A stretch of 64,000 bases of DNA from Sulfurimonadaceae bacterium (GCA_041572615.1 JBFFSC010000001.1:6050-70049), one strand, 5' to 3'. Positions 4,751 through 61,940 are shown, counted from the stretch's first letter. Numbers and translations are program-made. Notes: generated by a model not told the origin, from the sequence alone.

Positions 4751-6680
4751 ACGCCTGAGCCAACAGTCTTTGCTTGATATTGCTCTTGCTCTCTCGATTA
4801 TTCCCCACCTGTTTACACTTAAAGTGCCTATGTTGGTCTATCTGGCCATTACACTGGTCTTTATTATCAGGAAGAAAAATTCAAAAAAAGTCATTATCAC
4901 CTTCTCTGTTTTGGGACTTGTCGCTATCGCTTTGAGTTTTTTTGCCGAATACAATTTTTCAAACTTTTCCAGGCTACTGGTCTTTATCTCCTTACTGATC
5001 TCTTTGTTGACCTATGCGGTATTGTTGCAACGACTTACACAAACACTCAACTTTTACCTCCTGATCTCACCTGCGATGTTGATGGTACTCTCCTTTTTCT
5101 TTTTTAATTCTATCGGGATGCTCTTTTATGCTCTTTTCACTCTCTTCATCTTTACCTTTTTGGTACTTTATGAACGAATGCAGAGTAGTGTTGCCAATGT
5201 CCTGCGGATCAACGGTTTATTGTTTCTCTTTTCCCTGCCTATTGTGGCACTCCTTTTTCTTACCTTTCCGAGGATATCGTACAAAAAGGCACGCTTCGGT
5301 TTTTCTGCTGAGGAGATCAAGCGCACAGGACATGACGGGACCATGCATATTGACTCCAATGCCATGCTTGTCCCTTCACCAAAACTCGTAATGGAGGTCA
5401 CCTTCGAAGGCCAGATTCCATCAAACCACAGTCTCTATTTCAGGGGTTCTGTTCTCTATACGGACATGGGTACACGCTGGGTTCAGGACAAAAGGGTCTA
5501 TACAGAAAAAACACTCCCCCGTGAAGTCGAAAACATCATAAACTATAAAGTCAAACTCTATCCCCATGACAAACAGTGGCTTTATATGCTGGACATTCCT
5601 CTTCTTCAGCCTCTCAAAACGACGATAGACAAAGACTTTATCACTCGAAACCACCAGTTGGTCAAAGAGACCCTGTATTATGATGGGCGTTCCGCCTTGG
5701 AATACACACTGCCAAAAGAGTATCCGCAGATCCTCACGAAGGCACTTCGGGTTGACAAAAACCGCGATCCAAGGACCTACGCTGCTCTGATGAATACCAT
5801 TGATACCAGGGCTGATGATATGAGTAAGGCTAACGGCCTTTTGAAGTTCTTCTCTGATTTACAACTCTCCTATTCACTCAAGCCTAAGAGAATTGACCTG
5901 GAACACCCTGTTGATTCTTTTCTCTTTGACTCCAAGATCGGTTATTGTGTTCATTTTGCCTCGGCCTTCGCCTCCAGCGCGCGTATGATCGGTATCCCTT
6001 CACGGATAGTAACGGGCTATAAGGCTGATCGGACCAACGCTATCAACAACTACCTGCTAATCAAAGAAGCTGATGCGCATGCATGGGTCGAACTCTACTT
6101 GAAGACAAAAGGATGGGTAAGATTTGAGCCCACATCAACAGCGTGGCGCACCCTGGCACCGGATAACCCTCAAGTATCAAATGCCTATACCAGTGCCTCA
6201 TTGAAACTCTCGAACATGCAGAAACTCTTCAAGCAGATCAATATCTATTATATGTACACACGCTATGTCATAAACAACTGGATCATTCAATACAGCCGTA
6301 TCAAACAGATGTCACTCTTAAACGAACTGCTTACAAACACAATATTTCTCTTGAAGTTCCTGGGCTCGGTTGTTGTCTTTATCCTGCTTTGTATCATCTC
6401 TTTTCTCTTCCTTCAGCGAAGCAGCTGTGATGATCCGGTGCTGTGTGAGATGAAGAGACTCATTAAAGCCTTGAAAGCAAAAGGGGTTGAAAGAAGACGC
6501 GGTGAAACGATGTCTGCTTTTTTGCAAAGGGCTAAAGCAAAGACTCTCTACCACAATGAGATTGAGGAGATAAACAGGCTATATCATCTGTACCGGTATG
6601 CTGATATGAAAGACGATGCACTTCTGGCACAACTGCGCAGTAAAGTCCTCGCCTTAAGAAGATCGCTTAAGAACGGCTAG
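4719..6680 (+). CDS. transglutaminase-like membrane protein (TgpA-type, DUF3488 + TGase core)
   Basis: Multi-TM N-terminal half. Cys-His-Asp core GYCVHFASAF ... DAHAWVELY ... RFEPT. AGGAG lies 7 nt before the ATG. Confidence 0.85.
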   Translation: MKFFNFLHSTKRLSQQSLLDIALALSIIPHLFTLKVPMLVYLAITLVFIIRKKNSKKVIITFSVLGLVAIALSFFAEYNFSNFSRLLVFISLLISLLTYAVLLQRLTQTLNFYLLISPAMLMVLSFFFFNSIGMLFYALFTLFIFTFLVLYERMQSSVANVLRINGLLFLFSLPIVALLFLTFPRISYKKARFGFSAEEIKRTGHDGTMHIDSNAMLVPSPKLVMEVTFEGQIPSNHSLYFRGSVLYTDMGTRWVQDKRVYTEKTLPREVENIINYKVKLYPHDKQWLYMLDIPLLQPLKTTIDKDFITRNHQLVKETLYYDGRSALEYTLPKEYPQILTKALRVDKNRDPRTYAALMNTIDTRADDMSKANGLLKFFSDLQLSYSLKPKRIDLEHPVDSFLFDSKIGYCVHFASAFASSARMIGIPSRIVTGYKADRTNAINNYLLIKEADAHAWVELYLKTKGWVRFEPTSTAWRTLAPDNPQVSNAYTSASLKLSNMQKLFKQINIYYMYTRYVINNWIIQYSRIKQMSLLNELLTNTIFLLKFLGSVVVFILLCIISFLFLQRSSCDDPVLCEMKRLIKALKAKGVERRRGETMSAFLQRAKAKTLYHNEIEEINRLYHLYRYADMKDDALLAQLRSKVLALRRSLKNG

Positions 6681-7239
6681 TCACTTCAACGATATGATAC
6701 CCGAACTGGGTCTTGACAATATGCAGGGTATTCAAGGCTTCATTAAAACAGACCTTGTCAAACTCCGGAACCATCTGTCCCGGTCTGAATTCACCCAGTT
6801 CTCCGCCATTGTTCTTTGAAGGACATGATGAGTTTTCCATGGCGACCTTGGCAAAGTCGGCACCTGCTTCAATTTCTGACTTCAACTGTTGACACTTCTC
6901 TTCACTGTCCACAAGAATATGACGTGCAGTTGCCGTCACCACGACCGGTTCTTCAACCTCTGCGCGACTTGTCACTTCGACGATATGGTATCCAAACTGT
7001 GTTTGTACAATATGAAGGACGTTGATCTCATCATTGAAACACACCTTGTCAAACTCCGGGACCATCTGCCCCTGTGTAAACTCACCCAGGTCTCCACCAT
7101 TGTTCTTTGAAGGACATGATGAATTTTCCATCGCAACCTTGGCAAAGTCAGCTCCCGCTTCGATCTGGGCTTTCAACTCTTTACACTTCTCTTCGTTGTC
7201 AACTAATATATGGCGAGCACTTGCAACTATCATAATCAT
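6667..7239 (-). CDS. peptidylprolyl isomerase with two tandem PpiC/Par10-type parvulin domains
   Basis: ARHILV...SSCPSKNNGG(D/E)LGEF...QFGYHIVEVTSR occurs twice (aa 8-92 and 105-189), joined by AEVEEPVVVTAT. No signal peptide. Confidence 0.85.
   Translation of the reverse strand: MIMIVASARHILVDNEEKCKELKAQIEAGADFAKVAMENSSCPSKNNGGDLGEFTQGQMVPEFDKVCFNDEINVLHIVQTQFGYHIVEVTSRAEVEEPVVVTATARHILVDSEEKCQQLKSEIEAGADFAKVAMENSSCPSKNNGGELGEFRPGQMVPEFDKVCFNEALNTLHIVKTQFGYHIVEVTSRS
6673..7218 (-). repeat. intragenic tandem duplication, 291-nt period (two parvulin modules)
   Basis: attgttctttgaaggacatgatga occurs at 6808 and 7099. The flanking DNA aligns throughout with scattered substitutions. Confidence 0.85.
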
Positions 7240-7287
7240 TCCTCTGTTTTGTTTTTTTGAAATCGTACACTAAACCTCTTTACAAAT

Positions 7288-7296
7288 TGGTATAAT
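7288..7296 (+). promoter_or_regulatory. extended -10 promoter element TGgTATAAT
   Basis: ttggtataat with TATAAT at 7291-7296, 31 nt before ATG 7327, in an AT-rich intergenic region. Confidence 0.4.
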
Positions 7297-7326
7297 ACAT
7301 GACAAAATAAACTATAGAAGAACAAC

Positions 7327-7851
7327 ATGAGCCTTATTTCAAGCATTAAACAACCGATCAAGAAGTTCACACAGAGTAAGATTCTTCCTTTCACCTTCAA
7401 CGTTTCCGAACAGCCTATGCTCTTTAAAGAGTTGATGCATGCCAATATGATCTACAACGACGGGATGAACCTTGAATACAACATGAAAGGCTTTCGTGTT
7501 CGTCTGGGACGTATATATTTTGTTTTCTTTATTCTATGGCTTCTGCTGTTGACACCGCCATCGCTGATCTTTCATACACTGCTTGCCAAGATAGACTGTC
7601 ATGCCCTGATATTATCGTCTATCGTCTTTACGGTACTGTTCTTTTCCACCTTTGCCCTGTTTAAGACATGGCTGATCGAACTTATATCCAAGCAGATCAT
7701 TACACAGGCATGGAAAAACCATTTCCCCCATTTCGATTACGACAAAAACTCAAAGAAAGTCTCAAAGATCTATGCTCAAGCCATTGAAAGCGGTATTACC
7801 AACAAAGACCTGCAGCACCATATTATTACAAAGATGGTAAGCGAAAAATAA
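7327..7851 (+). CDS. hypothetical membrane protein
   Basis: 174 aa with two to three hydrophobic helices in the middle (IYFVFFILWLLLL, ILSSIVFTVLFFSTFALF). No family recognised. Confidence 0.5.
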   Translation: MSLISSIKQPIKKFTQSKILPFTFNVSEQPMLFKELMHANMIYNDGMNLEYNMKGFRVRLGRIYFVFFILWLLLLTPPSLIFHTLLAKIDCHALILSSIVFTVLFFSTFALFKTWLIELISKQIITQAWKNHFPHFDYDKNSKKVSKIYAQAIESGITNKDLQHHIITKMVSEK

Positions 7852-7877
7852 GATCAAAACCCTATAATGCAGTCTCC

Positions 7878-9431
7878 TTAGTCAGCATACACCCTCATGA
7901 TCTTCTTCACGTAGGCAATATCAGAAAAAAACAGCTCCACAAGTGTCGGATCAAAATGACTCCCTTTATGCGACTGCATATATCCCATTGCATCTTCAAA
8001 GCTCCAGGCCTCTTTATAGCATCGACGGTGTGACAGTGCGTCAAAGACATCTGCAATAGCGACAATGCGGCCGTATAGATTTATCTGCCGTCCTTGCAGC
8101 CCTCTGGGATATCCGGATCCGTCATATTTTTCATGATGTTCATGTGCTACTATCGCAGCCGCTTTCAGTATGGGTCGGGTCGAGTTTTTTAAGATGTTAT
8201 ACCCCAGTGTCGCATGCGACTTTATCACTTCAAACTCTTCATCTGTAAGTTTCCCCGGTTTAAGCAGGACACTGTCTTCTATTCCTATCTTGCCAACGTC
8301 ATGCAGTGGTGAGGCATATTTGAGTATGCTGCTTTCTGATTCATCCAAACCTGACTTCTTAGCCAGGTAATAGGCATATTCACACACTCTCTTTACATGG
8401 TTGGCTGTCTCTTTGGAACGACTTTCAACGACTTCACTCAATGTCTGGATTACCTCATTTTGGGTATCTACGACTTCCTTGTCCAGATAGAGGTTCTCAA
8501 ATGCGATAGCGACATTTGAGGAGTAGATATCCAAAAGACGTTTGTCATCATCTGTTATGTGTTTGCAGCCATCAACATATAGCATGTTTACCTGTCCGTT
8601 ACTTGACTTGAAATAATCGATAAAGATCTCATCAAAGAACATCGACTTCTCTTCTTTAAGAACCGTCGCCAGCATTTCTTTGAGCTCATCCTCGGCATAT
8701 TCATCGATCGTGTTGTTCTCATACTCGGCAAATTTTCCTGTACCGGCAAGGACTGACAGACCCTCCGGACCGCTTGATAGACTAAGACCGTCTATTTGCA
8801 GGTAAACAGAGTTTTTATTTAAGTTCAAAATCGAGATAAGCTGGCGCAAAGCCCCTCTGGCAAAATCTTGTAAGGAATGGGTCTCAAAAAGGTTGGCAGA
8901 GGCTTCTATGATCTGCTCAAGCCCTTTACGGTTTTGATCGATCACCATACGTTTATGTTCTATATTGATCAGGTCTCTGTAGGAGCGTATGGATGCTATG
9001 ACTGTTGTAAAAAGCTTGTCTACGGTCAGTTCTGTCTTCTCTTTGTAATCATTAATATCAAGTTCGACAACCACTTCCCTTTGCGGTGCCTGTCCCGGCT
9101 GTCCTGTTCGCAAGACTATGCGAACCAGCTTGTTCTGAAGTTCGTTTCTTACATACTTCACAAATTCAAGACCGGCATCATCAGTCTCCATGACCACATC
9201 AAGTAAGATAAGAGCTGTATCGGGATGTTCTTTCAGCTTATCTTTCGCTTCAGAACCGCTATGAGCATGAACGAGAAGGAGATCCTTTCCTTCAAACTCA
9301 AAGCCTTTTAAAACAGCTTTTGTAATTGCATGTACCTCTTCATCGTCATCTACGACTAATATCTTCCAGCTTGATTCCGGTTTGATAGGGTGTTGTACCT
9401 CTTCGGCAAACTCAAACAACATACTCGCCAT
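7878..9431 (-). CDS. response regulator with HD-GYP c-di-GMP phosphodiesterase domain
   Basis: REC domain (ILVVDDDEEVH ... LILLDVVM). The C-terminal HD-GYP domain has HDVGKIGI and HHEKYDGSGYPRGL. A central region of about 170 aa is of unknown type. Confidence 0.9.
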   Translation of the reverse strand: MASMLFEFAEEVQHPIKPESSWKILVVDDDEEVHAITKAVLKGFEFEGKDLLLVHAHSGSEAKDKLKEHPDTALILLDVVMETDDAGLEFVKYVRNELQNKLVRIVLRTGQPGQAPQREVVVELDINDYKEKTELTVDKLFTTVIASIRSYRDLINIEHKRMVIDQNRKGLEQIIEASANLFETHSLQDFARGALRQLISILNLNKNSVYLQIDGLSLSSGPEGLSVLAGTGKFAEYENNTIDEYAEDELKEMLATVLKEEKSMFFDEIFIDYFKSSNGQVNMLYVDGCKHITDDDKRLLDIYSSNVAIAFENLYLDKEVVDTQNEVIQTLSEVVESRSKETANHVKRVCEYAYYLAKKSGLDESESSILKYASPLHDVGKIGIEDSVLLKPGKLTDEEFEVIKSHATLGYNILKNSTRPILKAAAIVAHEHHEKYDGSGYPRGLQGRQINLYGRIVAIADVFDALSHRRCYKEAWSFEDAMGYMQSHKGSHFDPTLVELFFSDIAYVKKIMRVYAD

Positions 9432-24151: not shown

Positions 24152-25399
24152 TTATGCACCCAGAGAGACCTTGGCAAATTCGGTTGATGCCTGAATATTA
24201 GAAAGCATCATCTGTTCTAACTCCTGCGTATTCAAAGCGTGCTTTTCTACAAAGGCATCTATTTTCTTCGTTTCAAACTTCTCGATAGAAATGACGATAC
24301 TATAGAGTTCTCCCAAGATCCCATCTTGTTTGAACAGGGCATCTTTAACACGTTCTTCCACATAAAACTCATTAATGATGTCTTCCAAAGGCATATGCAA
24401 AAGGGTGTCCATAAGCGAGAAGACACCCACAAAATAGGCTTCACTCTGTTCTTGCATCGTACAGTTCTTCTTGACCATCTTGAGCAGTGAGACCATCAGG
24501 TCAGTACGGTGTTTAACCATCAGGATTAATGGGTCATCAAAACTTCCCTTGTTCGAGAGTGTTTTTGAGTATAGCAGCAGCATCAACCATTGGTTCAAGG
24601 AATTTCTTCCCAAAAGTGTAATAACCTGCTGAATTGAAGAGATAGGGCTTTTAAAATGAAAGGCTGCCGAGTTCATAAAACGTAACAACTGCAATGTGAG
24701 ACTTGGGCTTTGCTCAAATGACTCGACGATCTCACTGGTATCACCGCCTGTCTGTAAAAGATTGCAGAGTTTGAAAAGTGATGCCTGGTCTGCATCAAAC
24801 TTCTTGTTCTGAATGATCTTTGGTTCAGCGAAATAATAGCCCTGAAAGGCATCAAACTTCTGCTGTTTACATGTCTCAAATACAGATTCTGTCTCCACCT
24901 TGCTTGCAATAGCCTCTATCTCATGCATATGCAGTGTACGCACTATTTTCCCCATATGTTCCTGCTCAAAACTGGAAGTATCGACTTTACAGTAGCTAAG
25001 ATAGGGAAAAATCTTCTTATACTCGGAAAGGTGCCCATAATCTGATGCATCCAGGCAGAAACGGTAGCCTTTTTTATGTAAAACCTCTACACGCTCCACC
25101 GTAAGGTCATCCAGATTGCTACTGCTTGTGATTTCAAAGACAAATGTCTTGGAAGGAATAGTATCAACGATTTCATGACGCAGAAAACGGTCATCGATAT
25201 TGACAAATGCCAATGCATTGCCGACGACATTTTGAAGACCGGCCTGATTTAATACATTGACCAGAAGTGCTGCTGTTGCATGACGTTGATTTGCATAGGC
25301 TGCGCTACGTTCGCTATCACGGTACAACAGTTCATAGCCCATGATCTTCTGCTGTTTGTCTAAGATCGGTTGTCTGGCAAGGTAGAAATTTGTCGACAT
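24152..25399 (-). CDS. EAL + HDOD domain signalling protein (c-di-GMP phosphodiesterase-like)
   Basis: N-terminal LARQPILDKQQKIMGYELLYR (EAL-type start). C-terminal HDOD-like LLRFMNSAAFHFKSPISSIQQVITLLG. Confidence 0.8.
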   Translation of the reverse strand: MSTNFYLARQPILDKQQKIMGYELLYRDSERSAAYANQRHATAALLVNVLNQAGLQNVVGNALAFVNIDDRFLRHEIVDTIPSKTFVFEITSSSNLDDLTVERVEVLHKKGYRFCLDASDYGHLSEYKKIFPYLSYCKVDTSSFEQEHMGKIVRTLHMHEIEAIASKVETESVFETCKQQKFDAFQGYYFAEPKIIQNKKFDADQASLFKLCNLLQTGGDTSEIVESFEQSPSLTLQLLRFMNSAAFHFKSPISSIQQVITLLGRNSLNQWLMLLLYSKTLSNKGSFDDPLILMVKHRTDLMVSLLKMVKKNCTMQEQSEAYFVGVFSLMDTLLHMPLEDIINEFYVEERVKDALFKQDGILGELYSIVISIEKFETKKIDAFVEKHALNTQELEQMMLSNIQASTEFAKVSLGA

Positions 25400-26371: not shown

Positions 26372-26451
26372 CCTTTATGCATTAAATGAGTGTATTTTAG
26401 CAAAAAACACAAGTTCTCCATGTGTGTGAAGCATCTCTTTGCATTAGTATC

Positions 26452-26475
26452 TAACCGACAAATTAGGACTATTAA
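26452..26475 (+). promoter_or_regulatory. copy of conserved 24-nt box (TAACCGACAAATTAGGACTATTAA) upstream of the BLUF gene
   Basis: 19/24 identical to the copy at 54573. TATACT at 26493 follows after a 17-nt spacer. 66 nt before ATG 26541. Confidence 0.4.
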
Positions 26476-26540
26476 ACCGTATAAAAAATAGATATACTAA
26501 ACAATAGAGAAATATGAACAAAGATGTATAGAGGTCTGTA

Positions 26541-26939
26541 ATGATACGGTTGATCTATGTAAGTCAGGCAAACGATATTGATTTCAACGAGACAAAAGCC
26601 ATCCTCGATGTCTCCTTCAAGCATAACAAAGACAATAGCATCACAGGGGTATTGGTCTATGGTCAGAACTATTTTATCCAGTGCCTTGAAGGTAGCAAGG
26701 AACAGGTAGAGGCCCTCTATAGAAAAATCATTTTAGACCAGCGGCATGACCATATCGAACTGATCAGTAAAGAGGAGATTCAAGACCGCTATTTTGATGA
26801 CTGGCATTTGTCTTTAATGAACAAACATGCCTATAACGATATCATACAGAGACATTCAAACAGTGGTGTTTTCAACCCTTATACGATGCGCCCTGAACAG
26901 CTTATCAAGATACTTGATGAACTCTCAAGGGTTGTTTGA
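26541..26939 (+). CDS. short BLUF-domain blue-light photoreceptor
   Basis: LIYVS (Tyr), GVLVYGQNYFIQCLEG (Gln) and DDWHLSLM (Trp/Met) match the BLUF photocycle residues. 132 aa with no output domain. Confidence 0.85.
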   Translation: MIRLIYVSQANDIDFNETKAILDVSFKHNKDNSITGVLVYGQNYFIQCLEGSKEQVEALYRKIILDQRHDHIELISKEEIQDRYFDDWHLSLMNKHAYNDIIQRHSNSGVFNPYTMRPEQLIKILDELSRVV

Positions 26940-26966
26940 TTATAAAACTCAATACAGGAGTATACA

Positions 26967-27785
26967 ATGAAAGTTGCATTAACAGGAGCCAGTGGTTTCG
27001 TAGGAACAGCTCTGCAAGAGTCCTTTAATAACTGTACTGTCATCTCACGTCATGATGATCACTCAAGCATGCTCAAAAAACTCAAAGATACCGATATTGT
27101 GATCAATCTTGCAGGGGCACCCATCATCAAACGGTGGAGTGATCCCTACAAGCAGACACTTTTAAAAAGCAGGATAGAGACAACACGCGAACTTGTCAAA
27201 GCTGTCAATCAAAGCAATGTCAAGCATTTTATATCAACCTCTGCTATTGGGGTCTATCCCGATGATCTTCCTTGTGATGAGTCCAGCACAAAGATCTCAA
27301 ATGATTTTTTAGGTGAACTCGCTTACCAGTGGGAGCAGGAAGCTCTGCTATGTGACAAACCGACAACTATCCTTCGTTTTGGCGTTGTCCTGGGAAAAGG
27401 TGGAGGCGCACTTGCCCAGATGCTGACACCTTTTCGTCTCGGGCTGGGAGGCACCATTGGAAATGGGGATATGATGACGAGCTGGATACATATCGAAGAC
27501 CTTGTTCGTATCTATCGTTTTGTTATAGACAACAAACTTACAGGTATCTTCAATGCCGTATCTCCAACTCCTGTAACTAACTATACTCTAACAAAAGCCC
27601 TTGGTAAAGCCTTGCACAGGCCAACCATCCTGCCTATCCCAAAGTTTGTCTTGAACATCATGTACGGTGAAGCGGCATCCGTCTTGACAGGCTCTAAAGA
27701 GGTCTATCCCAAAGCACTACTTGATGCTGGATTTGTCTTTTCACATCATAATATCTCTGATGCTCTCAAGGATATTTTAAAATGA
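26967..27785 (+). CDS. NAD-dependent epimerase family protein, TIGR01777/YfcH-like
   Basis: N-terminal LTGASGFVG Rossmann motif. C-terminal DUF1731-like region. 272 aa. Confidence 0.75.
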   Translation: MKVALTGASGFVGTALQESFNNCTVISRHDDHSSMLKKLKDTDIVINLAGAPIIKRWSDPYKQTLLKSRIETTRELVKAVNQSNVKHFISTSAIGVYPDDLPCDESSTKISNDFLGELAYQWEQEALLCDKPTTILRFGVVLGKGGGALAQMLTPFRLGLGGTIGNGDMMTSWIHIEDLVRIYRFVIDNKLTGIFNAVSPTPVTNYTLTKALGKALHRPTILPIPKFVLNIMYGEAASVLTGSKEVYPKALLDAGFVFSHHNISDALKDILK

Positions 27786-28735
27786 AAATTGCCGTTTCAT
27801 CCTGTCTTTTGGGAAACAGAGTCCGTTTTGACAGTGGACATAAACATGACCATTTTATCACCGATGAGCTCAGCCGATATGCCCAGTTTATCCCTTTTTG
27901 TCCTGAAGACCTTGCCTTTGGAAGTCCAAGAGCCTCAGTGAGGATGGTACACGATAAACAAAACACGATTATCATTCAGTCCAACAAAGACGGCTCAGAC
28001 CTAACGTCCACGCTTCTGCAGGCTGCACATGATGATCTTGACCGGATAAAAAACGAGCCTCTGTGCGGTATCATCTTCAAATCAAAATCACCAAGCTGCG
28101 GTCTTAAAAGTGCCAAAGCCTATCTGCCCAATGGTTTTGCGGAGGGGAAAGAAGACGGAATTTTCGCGCGTTTATGCAAGGAGCATTTCCCTCTTTTACC
28201 GATGGAGGAAGAGGGACGATTAAATGATCCCTGGCTGAGAGAGAACTTTATCATGCAACTCTTTGCCTATGATGATTTTGAACAGTTAAAACATTCCTAT
28301 AACGGCATCAAGTCATTAGTGGATTTTCACCAATCCTATAAATTCATGCTGCAGTCAAAAGATGAGATCAATTATCGAAGGCTTGGCCGGCTCATCGGCA
28401 CACATGACAAAAAGAATGCAGAGCACATCTTTAAAGAGTATGAATATCTCTTTAAAAAGACCATCTCATATAAAAGCAGCATCGGCAAGACGCGTAATGT
28501 TCTGGAACATATGGCTGGTTTTGTGAAAAACGATCTTTTGGATGTTGAAAAGCAGACACTGCATGAACAGATCAAAGACTATGCTGCAAAGATAATACCA
28601 CTTATCACCCCGCTGAGCACACTCTATATGTTTGCCCATAAATATAATGCGACATATATACTCGGTCAAAAGTTTTTACAGCCTTACCCTAAAGAGTTAG
28701 CCCTGCGCTCTCATATCAATAGTGTGAAGCCATGA
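27782..28735 (+). CDS. ybgA: YbgA-type DUF523 + DUF1722 protein
   Basis: IAVSSCLLGNRVRFDSGHK (DUF523) plus a helical C-terminal half. It sits directly upstream of, and overlaps, the photolyase gene, as in the E. coli ybgA-phr operon. Confidence 0.8.
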   Translation: MKIAVSSCLLGNRVRFDSGHKHDHFITDELSRYAQFIPFCPEDLAFGSPRASVRMVHDKQNTIIIQSNKDGSDLTSTLLQAAHDDLDRIKNEPLCGIIFKSKSPSCGLKSAKAYLPNGFAEGKEDGIFARLCKEHFPLLPMEEEGRLNDPWLRENFIMQLFAYDDFEQLKHSYNGIKSLVDFHQSYKFMLQSKDEINYRRLGRLIGTHDKKNAEHIFKEYEYLFKKTISYKSSIGKTRNVLEHMAGFVKNDLLDVEKQTLHEQIKDYAAKIIPLITPLSTLYMFAHKYNATYILGQKFLQPYPKELALRSHINSVKP

Positions 28736-30084
28736 GACGCATTCTTTGGTTTCGACGCGATCTCAGGGTTTCAGACAACCCTCTCTTGGCATTGGGTGGA
28801 GAGGTCTTGCCGATCTTTATCTTTGATAAAAACATCCTGACACCGCTTGATAGAGAGGATAGACGCATCTCATTCATCTTCTTTCATGTACTCAAACTAA
28901 AAGAAGAACTTCAGCAAAAAGGGCTTGATCTTAAACTCTTTTTTGCAGATCCGATCGAAGTCTTCACCTCCCTCGCTGCACTTGGTTTTGATGAAGTCGC
29001 AGCCAGTGGCGACTATGATACTTACGCCAGAGACAGGGACCGCAAAGTCTCTCACATCCTGCCGTTTAATTATGTGCACGACACCTATATCTTCAGACCC
29101 GACGAGATACTCAAACCAGACCATACACCCTATCTCGTCTTCACCCCTTTTTACAAGAAAGCAAAATCTCTCTTCACGAAGGCACACCTGCAAAGCCACC
29201 CTTTTGTCGAACAGACACTCTACCCAAGTGATTATGATGGTATCACTCACCTTGGAAGTGAGCAGCAAGAGACCCGCAAGATAGAGATTGCTTCCATCGG
29301 ATTCAGGTCTGTGCCCTGCCCACATGAGGATCCCCATACGCTATTAAACACTTTTGATCTGCAAAACTATGAAAAGCACAGAGATGTTCCCTACCTTCAC
29401 AGCACTTCAAAACTTAGTCTTCATCTGCGTTTCGGCACACTTTCCATCCGTGATCTCTTGCGCTTTTTAAGCACTCAAAAGAGAGCAGGTATTCCCACAG
29501 AGCCTTTTTTCAGACAACTTGTCTTCAGAGAGTTTTACGCCTATCTCCTCTACCATTTTCCGCGTGTTGAAAAAGAGAACTACAAATACAGTTTTGAAGG
29601 TATCCCCGATAAAAAAAGATATGCAGATTTTTGTGAGGCAAATACAGGTGTTCCTATTGTCGATGCCGGTGTCAATGAACTTTTACAGACCGGATATATG
29701 CATAACCGCGTTCGCATGATATGTGCTTCTTTTTTCACAAAAGACCTTCTGCTTCCATGGCAATGGGGAGAGACCTTCTTCGCAAAGCACCTTCTTGATT
29801 ATGACGCGGCATCCAACATTCTCTCATGGCAATGGAGTGCCGGTACAGGTATAGACCCGCAACCCTATTTTCGTATTTTCAACCCCTATCTTCAAAGTAA
29901 GAAGTTTGACAAAGAAGCCTGCTACATCAAAGCCTACTGTCCTATGCTTAACACAGTCGAAGCGAAACTCCTGCATGATGAAGAGGCACTGTTTGAGCAT
30001 ACTCTGCCTGGTTACCCAAAACCTATCATCAGACATAAAGAGGCTGTACAAAAAGCATTGATCCACTTTAAAAAAGGGCTTTAG
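28732..30084 (+). CDS. phrB: deoxyribodipyrimidine photolyase (class I CPD photolyase/cryptochrome family)
   Basis: WFRRDLRVSDNPLL, TGVPIVDAGVNELLQTGYMHNRVRM, WQWSAGTG, PYFRIFNP. Confidence 0.9.
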   Translation: MRRILWFRRDLRVSDNPLLALGGEVLPIFIFDKNILTPLDREDRRISFIFFHVLKLKEELQQKGLDLKLFFADPIEVFTSLAALGFDEVAASGDYDTYARDRDRKVSHILPFNYVHDTYIFRPDEILKPDHTPYLVFTPFYKKAKSLFTKAHLQSHPFVEQTLYPSDYDGITHLGSEQQETRKIEIASIGFRSVPCPHEDPHTLLNTFDLQNYEKHRDVPYLHSTSKLSLHLRFGTLSIRDLLRFLSTQKRAGIPTEPFFRQLVFREFYAYLLYHFPRVEKENYKYSFEGIPDKKRYADFCEANTGVPIVDAGVNELLQTGYMHNRVRMICASFFTKDLLLPWQWGETFFAKHLLDYDAASNILSWQWSAGTGIDPQPYFRIFNPYLQSKKFDKEACYIKAYCPMLNTVEAKLLHDEEALFEHTLPGYPKPIIRHKEAVQKALIHFKKGL

Positions 30085-30126: not shown

Positions 30127-30231
30127 TACCCTCCAACGATAGGACACCTTTATGTTTATACAAGCCAAATCGGTGTAAACTAAAACCACAATGTCATCTT
30201 ATTTTCTCCAGACACACAAGAGGTTCCGCAG

Positions 30232-32172
30232 GTGAAAGACAACACAACGATTTTAACTGATGCTATCTTTGACAATGTCGACCATCTACTTATCGCTACA
30301 GACACAGAAGGTGTCATCACCAAGTTCAATAAAGCAGCAGAAAGATTCCTGGGCTATCAGGCCGAAGAACTTGTCGGCAGTATGACCCCTGCACTCTTTC
30401 ACCTTGAATCTGAGGTTGTTGAACGGGCACAACTCTTCTCCGCCGAGCTGGAACAAAATGTAGAGCCGGGATTTAAGGTCTTTGTCATCAAGACAGAGCT
30501 TGGGCTTCCCAATGAATATGAATGGACCTATATCACCAAAAGCGGTGAGCACAAACCCGTTCTTCTTTCTGTCACTGCCTTACGTGACGATAATGGCAAC
30601 ATTACAGGTTATATCGGTGTTGCCAAAGATATCTCAGAAAGCAAACGCATTGCCCAGGACCTTCACCTGAGCCAAAACAGACTCAACGAAGCCCAGCGTA
30701 TCGCAAACATAGGGAGCTGGTCCCTTTCAGCCCGATCCGGCCTTTTATTATGGTCTGATCAGATCTACAAGATCTTCGAGATCGACCCCAAGCATTTCAA
30801 ACCCTCCTATGAAGGCTTTCTAAACAGTATTCATCCTGATGACGTCGAAAAGGTCAACCAGGCCTTTAGTGCTTCTCTTGAGAACAAAACCTCTTATAAC
30901 ATCGAACATCGCCTTCTTATGAAAGACGGTCGTATCAAATATGTCATCGAACGCGGTGAAACCGTCTATTCCGATACAGGAGAAGCTCTACTGACACAGG
31001 GGACGGTTCAAGACATCACTGAACTTAAACTGGTCCAACAGAGCCTGATCGAAGCGAAAGAGGCAGCCGAGAATGCCAACCGCTCAAAGAGCCGTTTTCT
31101 GGCCAATATGAGCCATGAGATACGTACACCCCTAAATGGTATTATGGGCTTTATCGAATTACTTCAAAAAGAGGAGACCGATCCCAAGAAAAAAGATTAT
31201 CTTGATATCATCCACACCTCCTCAAAGTCCCTGCTTGTCGTGATCAATGATATTCTTGATCTCAGCAAGATCGAAGACGGGAGTATGAAAATCGAGCCTA
31301 CCGACTTCGATCTTCATCAACACCTTGAACAGCTGATCACTTTTTTTAAGTCCATCAGCGACTCAAAAGAGATTGATCTGCATTTTGAGTATCCAGAAAA
31401 GCTCCATTCCCATGTATATACCGACTCCTTGCGTTTAAAACAGATCCTTTCCAACCTGATCTCCAACGCTATAAAGTTCTCACCTGAGAACTCGACAATC
31501 ACAATCGACCTAAAACGAGAAGATGACCACCTTATCATAGCCGTAAAAGATGAAGGAATAGGCATCTCTGAAGAAGCACAAAAACGTATCTTCAATCCCT
31601 TTGAACAAGCCGAAGTATCTACCACAAGGAACTATGGAGGAACCGGTTTAGGGCTGAGTATCTCAAAAAAGCTTATCGAGCTGCTTGACGGAGAGATCTA
31701 CCTTGAAAGTGAACTTGGCAAAGGAAGTACTTTTTCTTTTTCCATCAAGGCGCCTGAAATCTGCACCCTGGAAAAACATGAACACGATGACGCCGTACCT
31801 GCACTTCAAGGGCATATCCTCGTTGCAGAAGACAACAAGACAAATCAGCTTCTTCTTACCCTCCTATTGGATGAGATGGGTCTGACCTACAGCCTCGTTG
31901 AAGATGGAAAGGAGGCCGTAGAAGCATTCAAACAATGCCCAGACTACAATCTCATATTAATGGATATCAATATGCCCAATATGAACGGCATTGAGGCAAC
32001 AGAACATATACGTCAATCAAACTATCCGCATAGGAACATACCAATTATCGCCTTGACCGCCAATGTAATGAAGGAGGATATCGATCACTACCTTGAATCA
32101 GGTATGAACGCGCATCTTTCAAAACCTATTGACAGTCACCTTTTGGCACAGGTGCTGACACAATATCTATAA
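30232..32172 (+). CDS. hybrid sensor histidine kinase (PAS-PAS-HisKA-HATPase-REC)
   Basis: GTG start after AAGAGG. Two PAS/PAC units. H-box FLANMSHEIRTPLNGI, G-boxes DEGIGI and GGTGLGLSISK, and a C-terminal REC (ILVAEDNKTNQ, LILMDINMP). Confidence 0.9.
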   Translation: MKDNTTILTDAIFDNVDHLLIATDTEGVITKFNKAAERFLGYQAEELVGSMTPALFHLESEVVERAQLFSAELEQNVEPGFKVFVIKTELGLPNEYEWTYITKSGEHKPVLLSVTALRDDNGNITGYIGVAKDISESKRIAQDLHLSQNRLNEAQRIANIGSWSLSARSGLLLWSDQIYKIFEIDPKHFKPSYEGFLNSIHPDDVEKVNQAFSASLENKTSYNIEHRLLMKDGRIKYVIERGETVYSDTGEALLTQGTVQDITELKLVQQSLIEAKEAAENANRSKSRFLANMSHEIRTPLNGIMGFIELLQKEETDPKKKDYLDIIHTSSKSLLVVINDILDLSKIEDGSMKIEPTDFDLHQHLEQLITFFKSISDSKEIDLHFEYPEKLHSHVYTDSLRLKQILSNLISNAIKFSPENSTITIDLKREDDHLIIAVKDEGIGISEEAQKRIFNPFEQAEVSTTRNYGGTGLGLSISKKLIELLDGEIYLESELGKGSTFSFSIKAPEICTLEKHEHDDAVPALQGHILVAEDNKTNQLLLTLLLDEMGLTYSLVEDGKEAVEAFKQCPDYNLILMDINMPNMNGIEATEHIRQSNYPHRNIPIIALTANVMKEDIDHYLESGMNAHLSKPIDSHLLAQVLTQYL

Positions 32173-51811: not shown

Positions 51812-51840
51812 TCCAACCAACTGACATTTTTCACCTACGA
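51812..51840 (+). promoter_or_regulatory. conserved box CCAACCAACTGACATTTTTCACCTACGAA upstream of thiD
   Basis: 26/29 identical to 61863-61891. TACAAT at 51858 follows after a 17-nt spacer. The box ends 49 nt before ATG 51889. Confidence 0.55.
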
Positions 51841-51888
51841 ACCAAATGCTGTTTTTCTTACAATCGTACTATCAATCAAGGAGTCATC

Positions 51889-52671
51889 ATGAAAGTAGTG
51901 TTGAGTATTGCCGGTTCAGATTCAAGCGGAGGTGCCGGGATTCAGGCAGATCTAAAGACCTTTGAAGCCTTTGGCGTCTTTGGTACGTCAGTGATCACTG
52001 TTTTGACTGCACAGAACACAGCTGGTGTGAGTGCGATTGAGAGTGTTTCTGCCGACTTTGTACGTGCGCAGATAAAAGCCGTACTTGAAGATTTTGATGT
52101 GGCCGCGATCAAGATCGGAATGCTCTACAGCATAGATGTCATGGAGGCAGTTAAAAGCCAGATTGCCAACTGTAACTGTCCAATAGTCTTGGATCCTGTC
52201 TTTATATCCAAGGCTGGTTCACCCTTGCTTCAGGACGATGCCGTAGAAAAGATGAAAGAACTTTTTTCATATGCAACGGTGATCACACCGAACCTTTTCG
52301 AAGCAAAGGCACTTTTTGGATATGACAAAGATGATGCCGCATCTGTTGAAACGGTTAAACAACTGAATACTCCTGTACTGATTAAAAACCAGGTTATTCA
52401 AGATACGGGCCAAAAGAGAAGTGTCGACCTGCTCTATGCGGGTGATGAAGAACAATGCTTCGAAACGGCACATATCAGGACAAATAACCTTCACGGTACA
52501 GGATGCTCTTTCTCAAGTGCAATAGCTGCCAACCTTGCCTTAGGCAAAAGACTTGATGAATCGATAGAGGTCGCAAAAAGATTTGTTACCCAGTCACTCG
52601 TGCATGCACCGTCAATCGGGCACGGACCGGGACCTATCAACCACAAACAAGGAGGAAAGGATGTCGCATAA
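51889..52671 (+). CDS. thiD: hydroxymethylpyrimidine/phosphomethylpyrimidine kinase
   Basis: [26 protein letters not shown], and [12 protein letters not shown] near the C-terminus. Confidence 0.9.
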
Positions 52672-53281
52672 ACTGCAGGGACTATATGCTATTACCGATG
52701 AAACACTCACGCCTGATCACAGCGTAGTGGAGCAAGTAAAGACTGCCCTTCAAGCCGGTGCCAATATCATCCAGTACCGCAACAAGACCGCAGAAGACTC
52801 TCAGGTCGAATCTGTATGCAGGGACCTATTGAGACTCTGTCATAATCACAAGGCCATTTTTATCATCGATGACAGAGCAGATCTCGCTCATAAGATAGGG
52901 GCAGACGGTTTACACATAGGCAAAGATGACACCTCACTCTCAGATGCTAGAAAGATATTCTCTGAAGGTATCATCGGCGTATCTTGTTATGGGAGTATCC
53001 GTAAAGCTAAGGAAGCAGAAGAAGAAGGAGCCGATTATGTAGCCTTTGGTTCTTTCTTCCCCTCACCGACAAAGCCAAAATCAGGTGTTATCTCTTTAAA
53101 GGTGCTTCAGAAGGCCAAAGAAGCGTTGAATATCCCTGTATGTGCCATCGGAGGGATTAATCGTGACAATATCCATGAAGTAGCCGCATACCGGCCTGAC
53201 ATGATTAGTATTGTCAATGACATTTTCAATGGTGATATCACCCATAATATAACTCAACTCAAACAAGGAATGAAGATATGA
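52661..53281 (+). CDS. thiE: thiamine-phosphate synthase
   Basis: Start [13 protein letters not shown] follows GGAGG. IQYRNK, GADGLHIG, GGI motifs. 11-nt overlap with thiD. Confidence 0.9.
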   Translation: MSHKLQGLYAITDETLTPDHSVVEQVKTALQAGANIIQYRNKTAEDSQVESVCRDLLRLCHNHKAIFIIDDRADLAHKIGADGLHIGKDDTSLSDARKIFSEGIIGVSCYGSIRKAKEAEEEGADYVAFGSFFPSPTKPKSGVISLKVLQKAKEALNIPVCAIGGINRDNIHEVAAYRPDMISIVNDIFNGDITHNITQLKQGMKI

Positions 53282-54156: not shown

Positions 54157-54157
54157 T

Positions 54158-54517
54158 ATGAAAGGTTTACTTTTAGTCGCACACGGCAGCCGAAGAGATG
54201 CATCAAACAAAGAGTTTGAGACAATGGTCTCTTCTCTGAACAAAAGGCTTCATAAGGTTTATTCTAAGGTAAATACATCGTTTTTGGAGTTATCTTCACC
54301 AAGTATCGATGAAGCGCTGCATGCAATGATAGCTGAAGGTATAGACGATATACAGGTGTATCCTTTCTTTCTTAACCCCGGAAGACATGTACATCATGAT
54401 ATCCCTGAAAAGATAAAAGCATTCAAAACACTACACCCTGAAGTAAGCTTTGATATTCTGCCTCATTTTGGAAGCTCTGAACATATTATCTCCCTAATAG
54501 TAAATGATTTGACCTAA
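54158..54517 (+). CDS. small CbiX-type (sirohydrochlorin chelatase-like) protein
   Basis: MKGLLLVAHGSRRD and PFFLNPGRHVHHDIP are typical of CbiX(S). 119 aa. Confidence 0.6.
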   Translation: MKGLLLVAHGSRRDASNKEFETMVSSLNKRLHKVYSKVNTSFLELSSPSIDEALHAMIAEGIDDIQVYPFFLNPGRHVHHDIPEKIKAFKTLHPEVSFDILPHFGSSEHIISLIVNDLT

Positions 54518-54572
54518 GTACTTGTCTAAACCCGGCATCTACTCACTACATGTTTTTACGCTATAAAAGAAT

Positions 54573-54596
54573 GAACTGACAAATTATCACTACTAA
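54573..54596 (+). promoter_or_regulatory. copy of conserved 24-nt box (GAACTGACAAATTATCACTACTAA) upstream of lipocalin gene 1
   Basis: 16/24 identical to the 51817 copy and 19/24 to the 26452 copy. GATGAT at 54614 (17-nt spacer) or GATAAT at 54617. 41 nt before ATG 54637. Confidence 0.4.
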
Positions 54597-54636
54597 CATC
54601 CGGACACATATGCGATGATAATACCAAAGGATTCAT

Positions 54637-58796: not shown

Positions 58797-58820
58797 CCTA
58801 GTCTCGTTAGCAACGAAAGC

Positions 58821-58860
58821 CAATCCACCAATCCACCAATCCACCAATCGACAAATCCAC
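58821..58860 (+). repeat. tandem octamer array: CAATCCAC x3, then CAATCGAC, AAATCCAC
   Basis: Read directly: caatccac caatccac caatccac caatcgac aaatccac. Intergenic, and it overlaps the box copy at 58845. Confidence 0.9.
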
Positions 58861-58868
58861 ACTACAAA
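58845..58868 (+). promoter_or_regulatory. copy of conserved 24-nt box (CAATCGACAAATCCACACTACAAA) upstream of the small ORF/SDR operon
   Basis: 17/24 identical to the 54573 copy. TAGACT at 58886 follows after a 17-nt spacer. 47 nt before ATG 58915. Confidence 0.35.
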
Positions 58869-58914
58869 CATCCTTTATATTACTATAGACTGTGTAAAGA
58901 GTAGGAGGATGTTT

Positions 58915-59004
58915 ATGAACCATTTTATAGAAGAACTGAATATCAAGTTAGTCCTTGTGCCTTGTGCATTTGCACTATTCTTCCTGATCCGGGTATGGAG
59001 TTAG
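58915..59004 (+). CDS. candidate 29-aa hydrophobic micro-protein (MNHFIEELNIKLVLVPCAFALFFLIRVWS)
   Basis: Not in the ORF track (too short). AGGAGG at 58903-58908 lies 6 nt before the ATG. The stop is 8 nt before the SDR start. One predicted TM helix. Confidence 0.3.
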   Translation: MNHFIEELNIKLVLVPCAFALFFLIRVWS

Positions 59005-61862: not shown

Positions 61863-61891
61863 CCAATCAACTGACATATTTGACCTACGAA
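61863..61891 (+). promoter_or_regulatory. conserved box CCAATCAACTGACATATTTGACCTACGAA upstream of lipocalin gene 2
   Basis: 26/29 identical to 51812-51840. TATACT at 61909 follows after a 17-nt spacer. The box ends 50 nt before ATG 61941. Confidence 0.55.
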
Positions 61892-61940
61892 TGTTCTTTG
61901 GCTTGTCTTATACTTAAACTATATGAGTTAGGAGTACACC

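What the first reader, a model, noticed from the sequence alone, without database searches (positions are those of the whole stretch)
26541..30084. A stand-alone BLUF photoreceptor is the first gene of a YfcH-like / YbgA / photolyase operon
The genes BLUF (132 aa, with photocycle Tyr, Gln and Trp/Met present), a TIGR01777-type epimerase-family protein, ybgA (DUF523+DUF1722) and phrB are all on the + strand. The gaps are 27 nt, then two 4-nt overlaps.

The ybgA-phr pairing is known from E. coli. A short BLUF protein as promoter-proximal gene of the photolyase operon, preceded by a copy of the box at 26452, is not something I recognise as described. Short BLUF proteins signal by protein-protein interaction. 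This one could therefore be the light input to the unknown regulator that reads the box, autoregulated together with photorepair.
Basis: partly seen in the sequence, partly recalled or inferred. Interest (0 to 1): 0.62.

Follow-up and report, generated by a model that had tools for sequence, protein, structure and literature searches.

The report
BLUF sensor heading a photolyase operon
A small blue-light-sensor gene really is the first gene of a DNA-photorepair operon in this sulfur-oxidising marine bacterium, but it looks like a passenger of a widespread, apparently undescribed light-stress gene network rather than its master switch.

Summary
BLUF (26541-26939), a YfcH-like gene, ybgA and a class I photolyase lie head to tail with a 27-nt gap and two 4-nt overlaps. 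A 27-bp box (26450-26476) sits exactly 20 nt upstream of a -10 hexamer (TATACT).

One detail is wrong. The canonical signalling Met of BLUF (PixD Met93) is Leu90 here.

The box occurs five times in the window against 0 expected. At least 77 distinct copies lie in front of the same photo-oxidative-stress genes in Sulfurimonas, Sulfurovum, Arcobacter and Sulfuricurvum. That spread is far wider than this BLUF clade.

The only regulators that recur inside box-driven operons are a LytS-type kinase and a REC-LytTR response regulator (hemH-oxidoreductase-lytS-lytTR). They are the likely readers of the box. Neither is encoded in the window.

Relatives carry BLUF elsewhere in the same gene island:
- as the last gene after phr;
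- directly after an EAL phosphodiesterase gene;
- fused to the C-terminus of a GGDEF-EAL protein.

BLUF is therefore most likely a co-induced accessory sensor, probably acting on c-di-GMP, and not the regulon's input. I rate it a new variant of a known kind, of moderate interest.

The parts
26450..26476 (+). The 'box': TCTAACCGACAAATTAGGACTATTAAA, the upstream promoter element of the BLUF operon.
   Evidence: PWM scan, 28.6 bits. Pattern match against 0 expected. Conserved in L001 and L008. Same element upstream of 77 operons in Campylobacterota.
26493..26498 (+). Predicted -10 hexamer TATACT, exactly 20 nt after the CTAT of the box. The inferred transcription start is about 26505, giving a 5' UTR of about 36 nt.
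   Evidence: The 20-nt spacing to a TAnAnT-like hexamer is constant at all five window boxes and in relatives. No experimental transcription start is available.
26541..26939 (+). Short PixD-type BLUF protein, 132 aa. Y6, N29, Q47 and W88 are present. The canonical Met is replaced by L90.
   Evidence: Pfam BLUF, E = 6e-29. PDB hits bPAC, TePixD, BlsA and SyPixD. AF2 model pLDDT 85.6 with topology beta-alpha-beta-beta-alpha-beta-beta plus two helices. Foldseek TM 0.90 to PixD 2hfo. Residue alignments.
26967..27785 (+). YfcH-like, TIGR01777-family NAD-binding epimerase-fold protein, 272 aa.
   Evidence: TIGR01777 266 bits (cut-off 207), plus Epimerase and DUF1731. Orthologues are box-driven in other Sulfurimonadaceae.
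27782..28735 (+). YbgA: a TudS-like 2-thiouracil desulfurase domain (formerly DUF523) plus DUF1722, 317 aa.
   Evidence: PF04463 E = 3.8e-33 and PF08349 E = 2e-29. 4-nt overlaps on both sides.
28732..30084 (+). Class I CPD photolyase, 450 aa.
   Evidence: PF00875 plus PF03441. Best PDB hits 1tez/1owl (E about 2e-66) and E. coli 1dnp.
30232..32172 (+). Cytoplasmic PAS-PAS-HisKA-HATPase-REC hybrid kinase, 147 nt downstream of phr. It probably has its own promoter. It is a recurrent neighbour of phr and BLUF in relatives and a candidate BLUF partner.
   Evidence: Pfam. Orthologues lie next to phr or BLUF in L001, L008, L007 (split), L011 and L075. Conserved intergenic block without a box.
51816..51842 (+). 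Box copy upstream of thiD-thiE-NMT1/THI5-cbiX (51889-54517).
54571..54597 (+). Box copy upstream of lipocalin-SRPBCC-flavin reductase-PALP-DUF2867 (54637-58796).
58843..58869 (+). Box copy upstream of the 29-aa peptide (58915-59004) and SDR-SnoaL-MFS-PEMT (to 61861).
61866..61892 (+). Box copy upstream of the second lipocalin and the amine oxidase (61941-63691 and beyond the window).
24152..25399 (-). Degenerate EAL-HDOD protein, two genes upstream on the opposite strand. A possible but weakly supported BLUF partner.
   Evidence: Pfam EAL (partial) plus HDOD. Only distantly related to the BLUF-adjacent EAL of L002. Synteny is kept only in the close relatives L001 and L008.

Best explanation
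Shown or strongly inferred:
- BLUF, yfcH, ybgA and phr form one operon.
- Its promoter is a -10 hexamer (TATACT, 26493-26498) plus an oriented 27-bp box ending about 17 nt upstream of the hexamer.
- The box is the shared cis-element of a photo-oxidative-stress and photorepair regulon found across Campylobacterota.
- Regulon members include photolyase/ybgA, thiamine synthesis, ferrochelatase, periplasmic glutathione peroxidase, lipocalins, SRPBCC, SDR/SnoaL/MFS and amine oxidase-DUF1365-CFA synthase.

Inferred:
- The box is bound by a REC-LytTR response regulator that acts as an activator at a promoter lacking a -35 element.
- This regulator and its LytS-type membrane kinase sit in box-preceded, hence autoregulated, hemH-FAD oxidoreductase-lytS-lytTR operons in relatives. 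They are not encoded in this window.
- BLUF is therefore a target of the regulon and is made together with photolyase when the regulon fires.

More speculative:
- BLUF acts as a PixD/PapB-type accessory blue-light sensor through protein-protein contact.
- Its ancestral partner was an EAL c-di-GMP phosphodiesterase.
- Light stress would then also change c-di-GMP-dependent behaviour such as motility or biofilm formation.
For: Operon:
- The coordinates, the 27-nt gap and the two 4-nt overlaps are as stated.
- No internal signals above chance.

Box and regulon:
- Five copies in the window against 0 expected.
- Fixed orientation and fixed 20-nt spacing to the -10 hexamer.
- The genome-wide scan was dominated by Campylobacterota. 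It gave 77 distinct sites directly upstream of the same gene families.
- The gene content matches the Shewanella RpoE2-ChrR regulon (pgpD-hemH2, ybgA-phrB-cfa, phr-SDR; PMC4336711).

Reader of the box:
- LytS (PF06580) was found in 13 box-driven gene chains and REC-LytTR (PF04397) in 10.
- No other regulator recurs.
- AYNAA repeats offset by 21 bp fit the 9-12-9 layout of LytTR sites (PMC6193735).

BLUF as cargo of the regulon:
- Seven of nine distinct genomic contexts of this BLUF clade place it inside the same island.
- It is the first gene after a box in the window, L001 and L008.
- It is the last gene, with a 4-nt phr/BLUF overlap, in L223.
- It follows phr in L004 and L010, and follows cbiX in L224.
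- A second BLUF clade is the first gene of box-BLUF-SDR-SnoaL-MFS operons in Sulfurovum (L063, L113).

EAL link:
- An EAL gene lies 10 nt upstream of BLUF in L002 and L003.
- A remnant of an EAL gene lies upstream of BLUF in L007.
- Sulfuricurvum carries PAS-PAS-GGDEF-EAL-BLUF fusions.
- A box-driven EAL gene lies divergent from BLUF in L045.

PixD-like fold and flavin-contacting residues.
Against: - Neither LytS/LytTR nor an orthologue of the BLUF-adjacent EAL is encoded in the 64-kb window. Their presence in this organism is unproven.
- No binding, transcription-start or light-induction data exist for any of these organisms.
- The inner part of the box (GACAWWW ... CTA) is more conserved than a plain LytTR spacer should be, so the binding mode is uncertain.
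- The canonical signalling Met is missing (Leu90). The protein may therefore not relay light in the usual way (PMC5899715).
- The PAS-HK-REC gene is as recurrent a neighbour of BLUF as EAL is.
Confidence: 0.55

Rival explanations
1. BLUF is the primary light input to the regulator that reads the box. It would act as an anti-repressor or co-activator, like BluF-BluR or AppA-PpsR, and would amplify its own synthesis together with photorepair.
For: - BLUF is box-driven and promoter-proximal in two independent clades: the window clade, and Sulfurovum L063 and L113.
- In other relatives it sits directly upstream of the lipocalin-operon box.
- There are precedents for BLUF proteins controlling transcription factors by contact (PMC5899715).
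- L011 has a MerR-like gene upstream of kinase-BLUF.
Against: - The box regulon is far more widespread than BLUF.
- L075 has the island and boxes without a BLUF gene in it.
- The recurrent box-driven regulator has its own kinase.
- No DNA-binding protein is detectable in the whole window.
- The MerR-like gene is unique to L011.
- L006 carries BLUF unlinked to any box.
Confidence: 0.15
2. BLUF is a light-sensing accessory subunit of the neighbouring cytoplasmic PAS-PAS-HK-REC hybrid kinase (30232-32172). This would be analogous to PixD binding the response-regulator-like PixE, and it would gate a phosphorelay.
For: - Orthologous kinases (57-89% identity) lie beside BLUF or phr in several relatives.
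- These are the window, L001, L008, L011 (kinase, 63 nt, BLUF) and L007 (kinase, REC, EAL remnant, BLUF).
- PixD signals through a REC-type partner.
Against: - L075 keeps phr-kinase-lipocalin without BLUF, so the kinase tracks the island rather than BLUF.
- L002, L004, L010, L223 and L224 have BLUF without this kinase nearby.
- I know of no precedent for a short BLUF protein controlling a histidine kinase.
Confidence: 0.15
3. The protein no longer works as a light switch. With the signalling Met lost, it is locked in one state or is merely a flavin-binding protein. Its activity would then be set only by how much of it the box promoter produces.
For: - The canonical Met is L, I, A or F throughout the window clade and I in the Sulfurovum clade. 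All other relatives keep W-x-M.
- PixD M93A keeps the red shift but is locked in the signalling state (PMC5899715).
- Both Met-less clades are the ones placed under the box.
Against: - Y6, Q47, N29 and W88 and the whole fold are conserved under clear purifying selection, with 76% mean column identity.
- An invariant Met93-Asn94 follows and might substitute.
- Leu or Ile is bulkier than Ala, so the M93A result may not transfer.
Confidence: 0.12

Closest known systems
PixD (Slr1694/Tll0078), BlsA and PapB: stand-alone short BLUF photoreceptors
   Same: - About 130-150 aa, with a BLUF beta-alpha-beta-beta-alpha-beta-beta core plus two C-terminal helices.
- Tyr, Gln, Asn and Trp are conserved.
- TM 0.90 to PixD.
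- Expected to signal by protein-protein contact.
   Different: - The canonical signalling Met is Leu90.
- The gene sits in a photolyase or photo-oxidative-stress operon, not beside pixE or a chemotaxis-like cluster.
BLUF-EAL systems: BlrP1 and YcgF/BluF (fused, BLUF N-terminal), and PapB-PapA (separate; recalled from Kanazawa et al. 2010, not checked here)
   Same: Relatives of this BLUF are encoded directly after an EAL gene (L002, L003) or fused to one (Sulfuricurvum L012-L015).
   Different: - In the fusions BLUF is C-terminal to GGDEF-EAL.
- In the window no orthologous EAL gene is adjacent. Only a distant, degenerate EAL-HDOD lies two genes upstream.
E. coli ybgA-phr operon, and the Shewanella, Vibrio and Rhodobacter sigmaE(RpoE2)-ChrR singlet-oxygen regulon
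   Same: - ybgA-phr pairing.
- Regulon content: photolyase, CFA synthase cluster, periplasmic glutathione peroxidase-hemH, SDR (PMC4336711).
   Different: - The promoter element is unrelated to TGATCC-N16-CGTAAT.
- No sigma or anti-sigma genes occur in box operons. A LytS/LytTR pair does.
- Thiamine genes and signalling genes (BLUF, EAL) are members here.
LytTR-family activators: AgrA, BrsR/HdrR, BtsR/YpdB
   Same: - Oriented, non-palindromic upstream element.
- Autoregulated operon.
- Short AYNAA repeats offset by 21 bp.
- Promoters without a good -35 (PMC4227749; PMC6193735).
   Different: - The proximal repeat overlaps the -35 position.
- The 'spacer' is itself conserved.
- The output is photoprotection, which has not been reported for this family in the searched library.

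Membership tests
BLUF domain (PF04940) | Match to the family profile above the curated cut-off | tested here: met
   100.4 bits against a cut-off of 25, residues 1-90.
BLUF domain (PF04940) | Photocycle Tyr and Gln, plus the flavin-contacting Asn | tested here: met
   Y6, Q47 and N29 align with TePixD Y8, Q50 and N32. They are invariant or nearly invariant in the clade.
BLUF domain (PF04940) | Conserved W-x-M on strand beta-5 (PixD W91/M93, AppA W104/M106) | tested here: not met
   W88 is present, but the Met position is L90. It is L, I, A or F in the clade. Met93 lies three residues later.
BLUF domain (PF04940) | Binds flavin and shows a reversible red shift of about 10 nm | not testable with these tools
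   Needs purified protein and UV-vis spectroscopy.
Short stand-alone BLUF (PixD/BlrB/BlsA type) | Single BLUF core followed by two C-terminal helices, with no effector domain | tested here: met
   AF2 elements E2-10, H15-31, E35-41, E44-51, H53-64, E69-79, E88-92, H95-105 and H118-129, with pLDDT 85.6. TM 0.90 to 2hfo over 131 columns.
BLUF anti-repressor pairs (BluF-BluR, AppA-PpsR) | A cognate DNA-binding partner, usually encoded nearby | tested here: not met
   No Pfam DNA-binding domain in any sizeable ORF of the 64-kb window. A MerR-like neighbour occurs only in L011.
BLUF plus EAL light-regulated c-di-GMP phosphodiesterase (BlrP1, PapB-PapA) | BLUF fused to, or encoded next to, an EAL protein | tested here: inconclusive
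   Met in relatives: L002/L003 adjacent, L007 remnant, L012-L015 fused, L045 divergent. Not met in the window, which has only a distant degenerate EAL-HDOD two genes away.
ybgA-phr photolyase operon | YbgA (DUF523 plus DUF1722) directly upstream of, and co-oriented with, a class I CPD photolyase | tested here: met
   4-nt overlap. Domains. PDB class I hits. The NCBIfam equivalog cut-offs for phrB are not reached (240 against 506), so orthology to E. coli PhrB is loose.
TIGR01777 (YfcH) family | Score above the curated cut-off | tested here: met
   266.3 bits against 207.35.
sigmaE/RpoE2-ChrR photo-oxidative regulon | ECF promoter TGATCC-N16-CGTAAT and an autoregulated rpoE-chrR operon | tested here: not met
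   The box consensus is unrelated. No sigma or anti-sigma gene occurs among genes downstream of the 77 boxes. Only the gene content is alike.
LytTR-regulated promoter | Autoregulated operon encoding the LytTR regulator behind the same element | tested here: met
   hemH-oxidoreductase-lytS-lytTR or ybgA-phr-oxidoreductase-lytS-lytTR lie behind a box in loci from three families. None is in the window itself.
LytTR-regulated promoter | Two 9-bp direct repeats separated by about 12 bp | tested here: inconclusive
   AYNAA recurs at a 21-bp offset, but the rest of the second repeat is weak and the 'spacer' is conserved (reference layout).
LytTR-regulated promoter | Binding of the regulator to the element | not testable with these tools
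   Needs EMSA, footprinting or DAP-seq.

The most novel reading that the evidence does not exclude
The Met-less short BLUF is a true photoreceptor that feeds light directly into the box regulon. It would do so by contacting the LytS/LytTR pair or the neighbouring PAS kinase, forming a positive loop with photorepair. This would be the first link between a BLUF photoreceptor and a LytTR-type regulator. It would mean that chemolithotrophic Campylobacterota replaced the sigmaE-ChrR singlet-oxygen circuit with a two-component circuit carrying an optional flavin photoreceptor.
Probability: 0.15. Interest if true: 0.75.

Novelty: new variant of a known kind. Interest (0 to 1): 0.55.

Why it matters
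Sulfurimonas, Sulfurovum and Arcobacter are key sulfur oxidisers at oxic-anoxic interfaces, and how they respond to light is essentially unstudied.

The work defines a testable cis-element and a candidate two-component regulator for a photo-oxidative-stress regulon. That regulon mirrors the sigmaE-ChrR regulon of Proteobacteria in content but not in control.

It also shows that BLUF and EAL signalling genes have been drawn into this regulon repeatedly. This suggests coupling of photorepair to c-di-GMP-controlled behaviour.

The natural loss of the 'essential' BLUF Met in two clades offers a ready-made test of current models of BLUF signal transmission.

Tried and rejected
- **Box as an ECF sigma promoter.** Rejected. 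The AAC-to-CTAC spacing is 13 nt rather than 16-17. A sigma-70-like -10 follows at a fixed distance. No sigma or anti-sigma genes lie behind boxes.
- **Box as a MerR-type operator in a long spacer.** Rejected. The 20-nt spacer is not conserved and not palindromic.
- **First PAS domain of the downstream kinase as a LOV domain.** Rejected by reading the sequence: it has no NCRFLQ-type Cys motif.
- **The window's EAL-HDOD as orthologue of the BLUF-adjacent EAL.** Rejected. Only 57 residues align.
- **RNA evidence for co-transcription.** The only metatranscriptome run gave two short phr fragments and nothing on BLUF.
- **MerR-like gene of L011.** It has no homologue in the window or in any other locus.
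- **Non-Campylobacterota BLUF relatives** (Psychromonas, Acinetobacter and others). They are not linked to these genes, apart from one Acinetobacter locus with a photolyase 1.5 kb away.


Full report
**1. The observation.**
ORF listing and direct reading confirm four co-oriented genes:
- 26541-26939, 132 aa;
- 26967-27785, 272 aa;
- 27782-28735, 317 aa;
- 28732-30084, 450 aa.

The gaps are 27 nt, then two 4-nt overlaps.

Profile searches identify the products:
- a BLUF domain (PF04940, E = 6e-29);
- a TIGR01777/YfcH-family protein (266 bits, cut-off 207);
- YbgA (PF04463, formerly DUF523, plus DUF1722);
- a photolyase (PF00875 plus PF03441).

The photolyase's closest solved relatives are class I CPD photolyases. 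No promoter-like or terminator-like signal above the shuffle expectation lies inside the run. A single transcript is therefore the default reading. It could not be tested, because the one metatranscriptome that holds related sequence gave only two short fragments inside phr.

**2. The BLUF protein.**
It aligns over its full length with the stand-alone receptors TePixD, SyPixD and BlsA.
- An AlphaFold model built on 14 homologues (pLDDT 85.6) has the BLUF beta-alpha-beta-beta-alpha-beta-beta core plus two C-terminal helices.
- The model superposes on PixD with TM 0.90.
- Tyr6, Asn29, Gln47 and Trp88 match the photocycle and flavin residues.
- The highly conserved Met two residues after the Trp (PixD Met93) is Leu90.
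- That position is L, I, A or F throughout this Sulfurimonadaceae clade and Ile in a second, Sulfurovum clade. Every other relative examined keeps W-x-M.
- In PixD, M93A keeps the flavin red shift, loses the protein response and is locked in the signalling state (PMC5899715).

The substitution is therefore functionally relevant and unexplained.

**3. The box.**
Comparing intergenic regions of the window and of relatives defines an oriented element. Its consensus is ACCAACTGACAAATTAGCACTACTAAC, that is AAYYGACAWWW-N5-CTAY-N-AA. Exactly 20 nt after CTAY comes a -10-like hexamer, and the start codon follows 6-40 nt later.
- The window has five copies, at 26450, 51816, 54571, 58843 and 61866.
- All five are on the + strand, intergenic and upstream of + strand operons.
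- None of 100 shuffles gave a match.
- The five operons begin with BLUF, thiD, the first lipocalin gene, the 29-aa peptide and the second lipocalin gene. Their full gene content is listed under parts.

**4. The regulon is phylum-wide.**
My own rough estimate for random sequence is a few tens of matches.
- Most hits were Sulfurimonas, Sulfurovum, Arcobacter, Sulfuricurvum and unclassified Campylobacterales.
- Seventy-seven distinct sites lie directly upstream of the same gene families.
- The most frequent first genes after a box were:

| First gene after the box | Sites |
|---|---|
| thiD | 17 |
| hemH | 16 |
| NMT1 | 7 |
| ybgA | 5 |
| SRPBCC | 5 |
| lipocalin | 4 |
| EAL | 3 |
| yfcH | 3 |
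| BLUF | 3 |

- The content matches the RpoE2-ChrR regulon of Shewanella (pgpD-hemH2, ybgA-phrB-cfa, phr-SDR; PMC4336711), but the promoter motif is unrelated.
- Photolyase and CFA synthase are blue-light induced in Vibrio cholerae (PMC5241685).
- I therefore read this as a photo-oxidative-stress and photorepair regulon. That is an inference from gene content.

**5. Who reads the box.**
No ORF in the 64-kb window that I scanned has a recognisable DNA-binding domain.

Among genes downstream of boxes elsewhere, one regulator pair recurs:
- a 338-aa membrane histidine kinase of the LytS type (PF06580), in 13 gene chains;
- a 232-aa REC-LytTR response regulator (PF04397), in 10 gene chains.

They always lie behind a box, as hemH-FAD oxidoreductase (474 aa)-lytS-lytTR or ybgA-phr-oxidoreductase-lytS-lytTR. 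This holds in Sulfurimonadaceae, Sulfurovaceae and Arcobacteraceae.

Several features fit LytTR activators (PMC4227749; PMC6193735):
- autoregulation;
- an oriented, non-palindromic site abutting a promoter with no -35;
- AYNAA repeats offset by 21 bp.

The strongly conserved inner part of the box does not fit a simple 9-12-9 layout. The window does not encode this pair. A search for LytTR together with photolyase found no relevant paper.

**6. Where BLUF sits in relatives.**
The BLUF clade is small: 21 protein clusters, found in three Sulfurimonadaceae representative genomes plus more distant forms. I found nine distinct contexts:

| Context | Loci |
|---|---|
| box-BLUF-yfcH-ybgA-phr, then PAS kinase | window, L001, L008 |
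| box-thiD-thiE-NMT1-cbiX-ybgA-phr-BLUF, with a 4-nt phr/BLUF overlap | L223 |
| the same, with a 78-nt gap | L004 |
| ybgA-phr-BLUF | L010 |
| ybgA-phr-EAL-BLUF, with a 10-nt EAL/BLUF gap | L002, L003 |
| cbiX-BLUF | L224 |
| PAS kinase-REC-EAL remnant-BLUF | L007 |
| MerR-like-PAS kinase-BLUF | L011 |
| isolated, no box | L006 |

- In L223, L004, L002, L224 and L007 BLUF lies immediately upstream of the box of the lipocalin operon.
- BLUF is therefore consistently part of the photoprotection island and usually co-transcribed with photolyase.
- Its position as the first gene is peculiar to the window's close relatives.
- A second BLUF clade (143 aa, 35% identical) is independently the first gene of box-BLUF-SDR-SnoaL-MFS operons in Sulfurovum (L063, L113).
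- A close relative, L075, has phr-OMP-PAS kinase-lipocalin and boxes but no BLUF gene.

**7. Likely partner.**
Three lines link BLUF to EAL c-di-GMP phosphodiesterases:
- the adjacent EAL gene in L002 and L003, and its 64-aa remnant in L007;
- the 814-aa PAS-PAS-GGDEF-EAL-BLUF fusions of Sulfuricurvum (L012-L015);
- box-driven EAL genes of the same type, one divergent from a BLUF gene (L045; also L123 and L134).

This matches the known BLUF-EAL logic of BlrP1 and of PapB-PapA. The latter is recalled from Kanazawa et al. 2010 and was not checked here.

In the window no such EAL gene is adjacent. The EAL-HDOD two genes upstream is degenerate and only distantly related.

The PAS-PAS-HK-REC kinase downstream of phr is an equally recurrent neighbour. 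It also occurs in the island without BLUF. It has a conserved, box-less upstream block.

**8. Verdict.**
BLUF is co-regulated with photorepair under the box. The distribution of the box, the dedicated kinase-regulator pair and the EAL linkage argue that BLUF is a recruited, co-induced accessory sensor, or a state-locked effector. They argue against its being the regulon's light input.
- The BLUF-first photolyase operon is a new variant of known parts.
- The more substantial lead is the apparently undescribed LytS/LytTR-associated photo-oxidative regulon of Campylobacterota.

Noticed in passing
Relatives L032, L035, L039, L060, L062, L077, L083, L094, L121, L127 (not in the window): A box-preceded operon, hemH-FAD oxidoreductase (474 aa)-LytS-type kinase-REC-LytTR regulator, recurs in Sulfurimonas, Sulfurovum and Arcobacter. 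It is a candidate undescribed photo-oxidative two-component system. The oxidoreductase is always next to the kinase and could be a co-sensor.
   Followed up: partly
window 51816-54517: A thiamine-synthesis operon (thiD-thiE-NMT1/THI5-like-cbiX) carries the light-stress box. thiD is the commonest first gene behind boxes phylum-wide (17 of 77 sites). In relatives it runs on into ybgA-phr.
   Followed up: partly
window 58915-59004: A conserved 29-aa hydrophobic ORF (MNHFIEELNIKLVLVPCAFALFFLIRVWS) with a strong ribosome-binding site lies between the box and the SDR gene. It is also present in L002, L004 and L007. The mechanical TTG start of the SDR ORF at 58962 overlaps it and is probably wrong.
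   Followed up: partly
window 58820-58845: Three tandem copies of CCAATCCA lie directly upstream of the SDR-operon box and merge into it, repeating the first bases of the box.
   Followed up: no
L012-L015 (Sulfuricurvum and Campylobacterales MAGs), about 5955-8402: Proteins of 814 aa with PAS-PAS-GGDEF-EAL-BLUF. The BLUF domain is C-terminal, the reverse of BlrP1 and YcgF. In L012 and L013 a DUF2867 light-regulon gene follows.
   Followed up: partly
L063 7199-7630 (-) and L113 2489-2920 (-): A second, Sulfurovum BLUF clade (143 aa) is the first gene of box-BLUF-SDR-SnoaL-MFS-PEMT operons. It also lacks the canonical Met (W-G-I).
   Followed up: partly
window 24152-25399 (-): The EAL-HDOD protein has degenerate EAL motifs (ELL, FEITSS, CLDASDYG on reading the sequence). 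It is probably catalytically inactive and so a possible c-di-GMP receptor or interaction module.
   Followed up: no
window 7878-9431 (-): A REC-DUF3369-HD-GYP protein, an RpfG-like c-di-GMP phosphodiesterase response regulator. It is another c-di-GMP component in the window.
   Followed up: no
window 30146-30195; L001 and L008 equivalents: A strongly conserved 45-nt block (TTTATACAAGCCAAAT.G.TGTAAACTAAAAC) lies in the phr-to-kinase intergenic region. It suggests a separate, box-less promoter or regulatory site for the PAS kinase.
   Followed up: partly
L049 and L056 (Sulfurimonas), first gene after the box: An uncharacterised 118-aa protein with no Pfam match (MPHIVLENI...) is the first gene of box-driven operons there. 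In L056 yfcH follows directly (box-P119-yfcH), so it holds the position that BLUF holds in the window. In L049 a lipocalin gene follows.
   Followed up: no
L011 1734-2078: A 114-aa MerR-family gene lies upstream of PAS kinase-BLUF in one Sulfurimonadaceae MAG. This recalls BluR-BluF, but it has no homologue in the window or in any other locus.
   Followed up: yes
window 27782-28735: The YbgA N-terminal domain is now classed with TudS 2-thiouracil desulfurases and keeps the Cys motifs (SSCLLG, FCPE, SPSCG). This hints at a role in thio-nucleobase photochemistry alongside photolyase.
   Followed up: no
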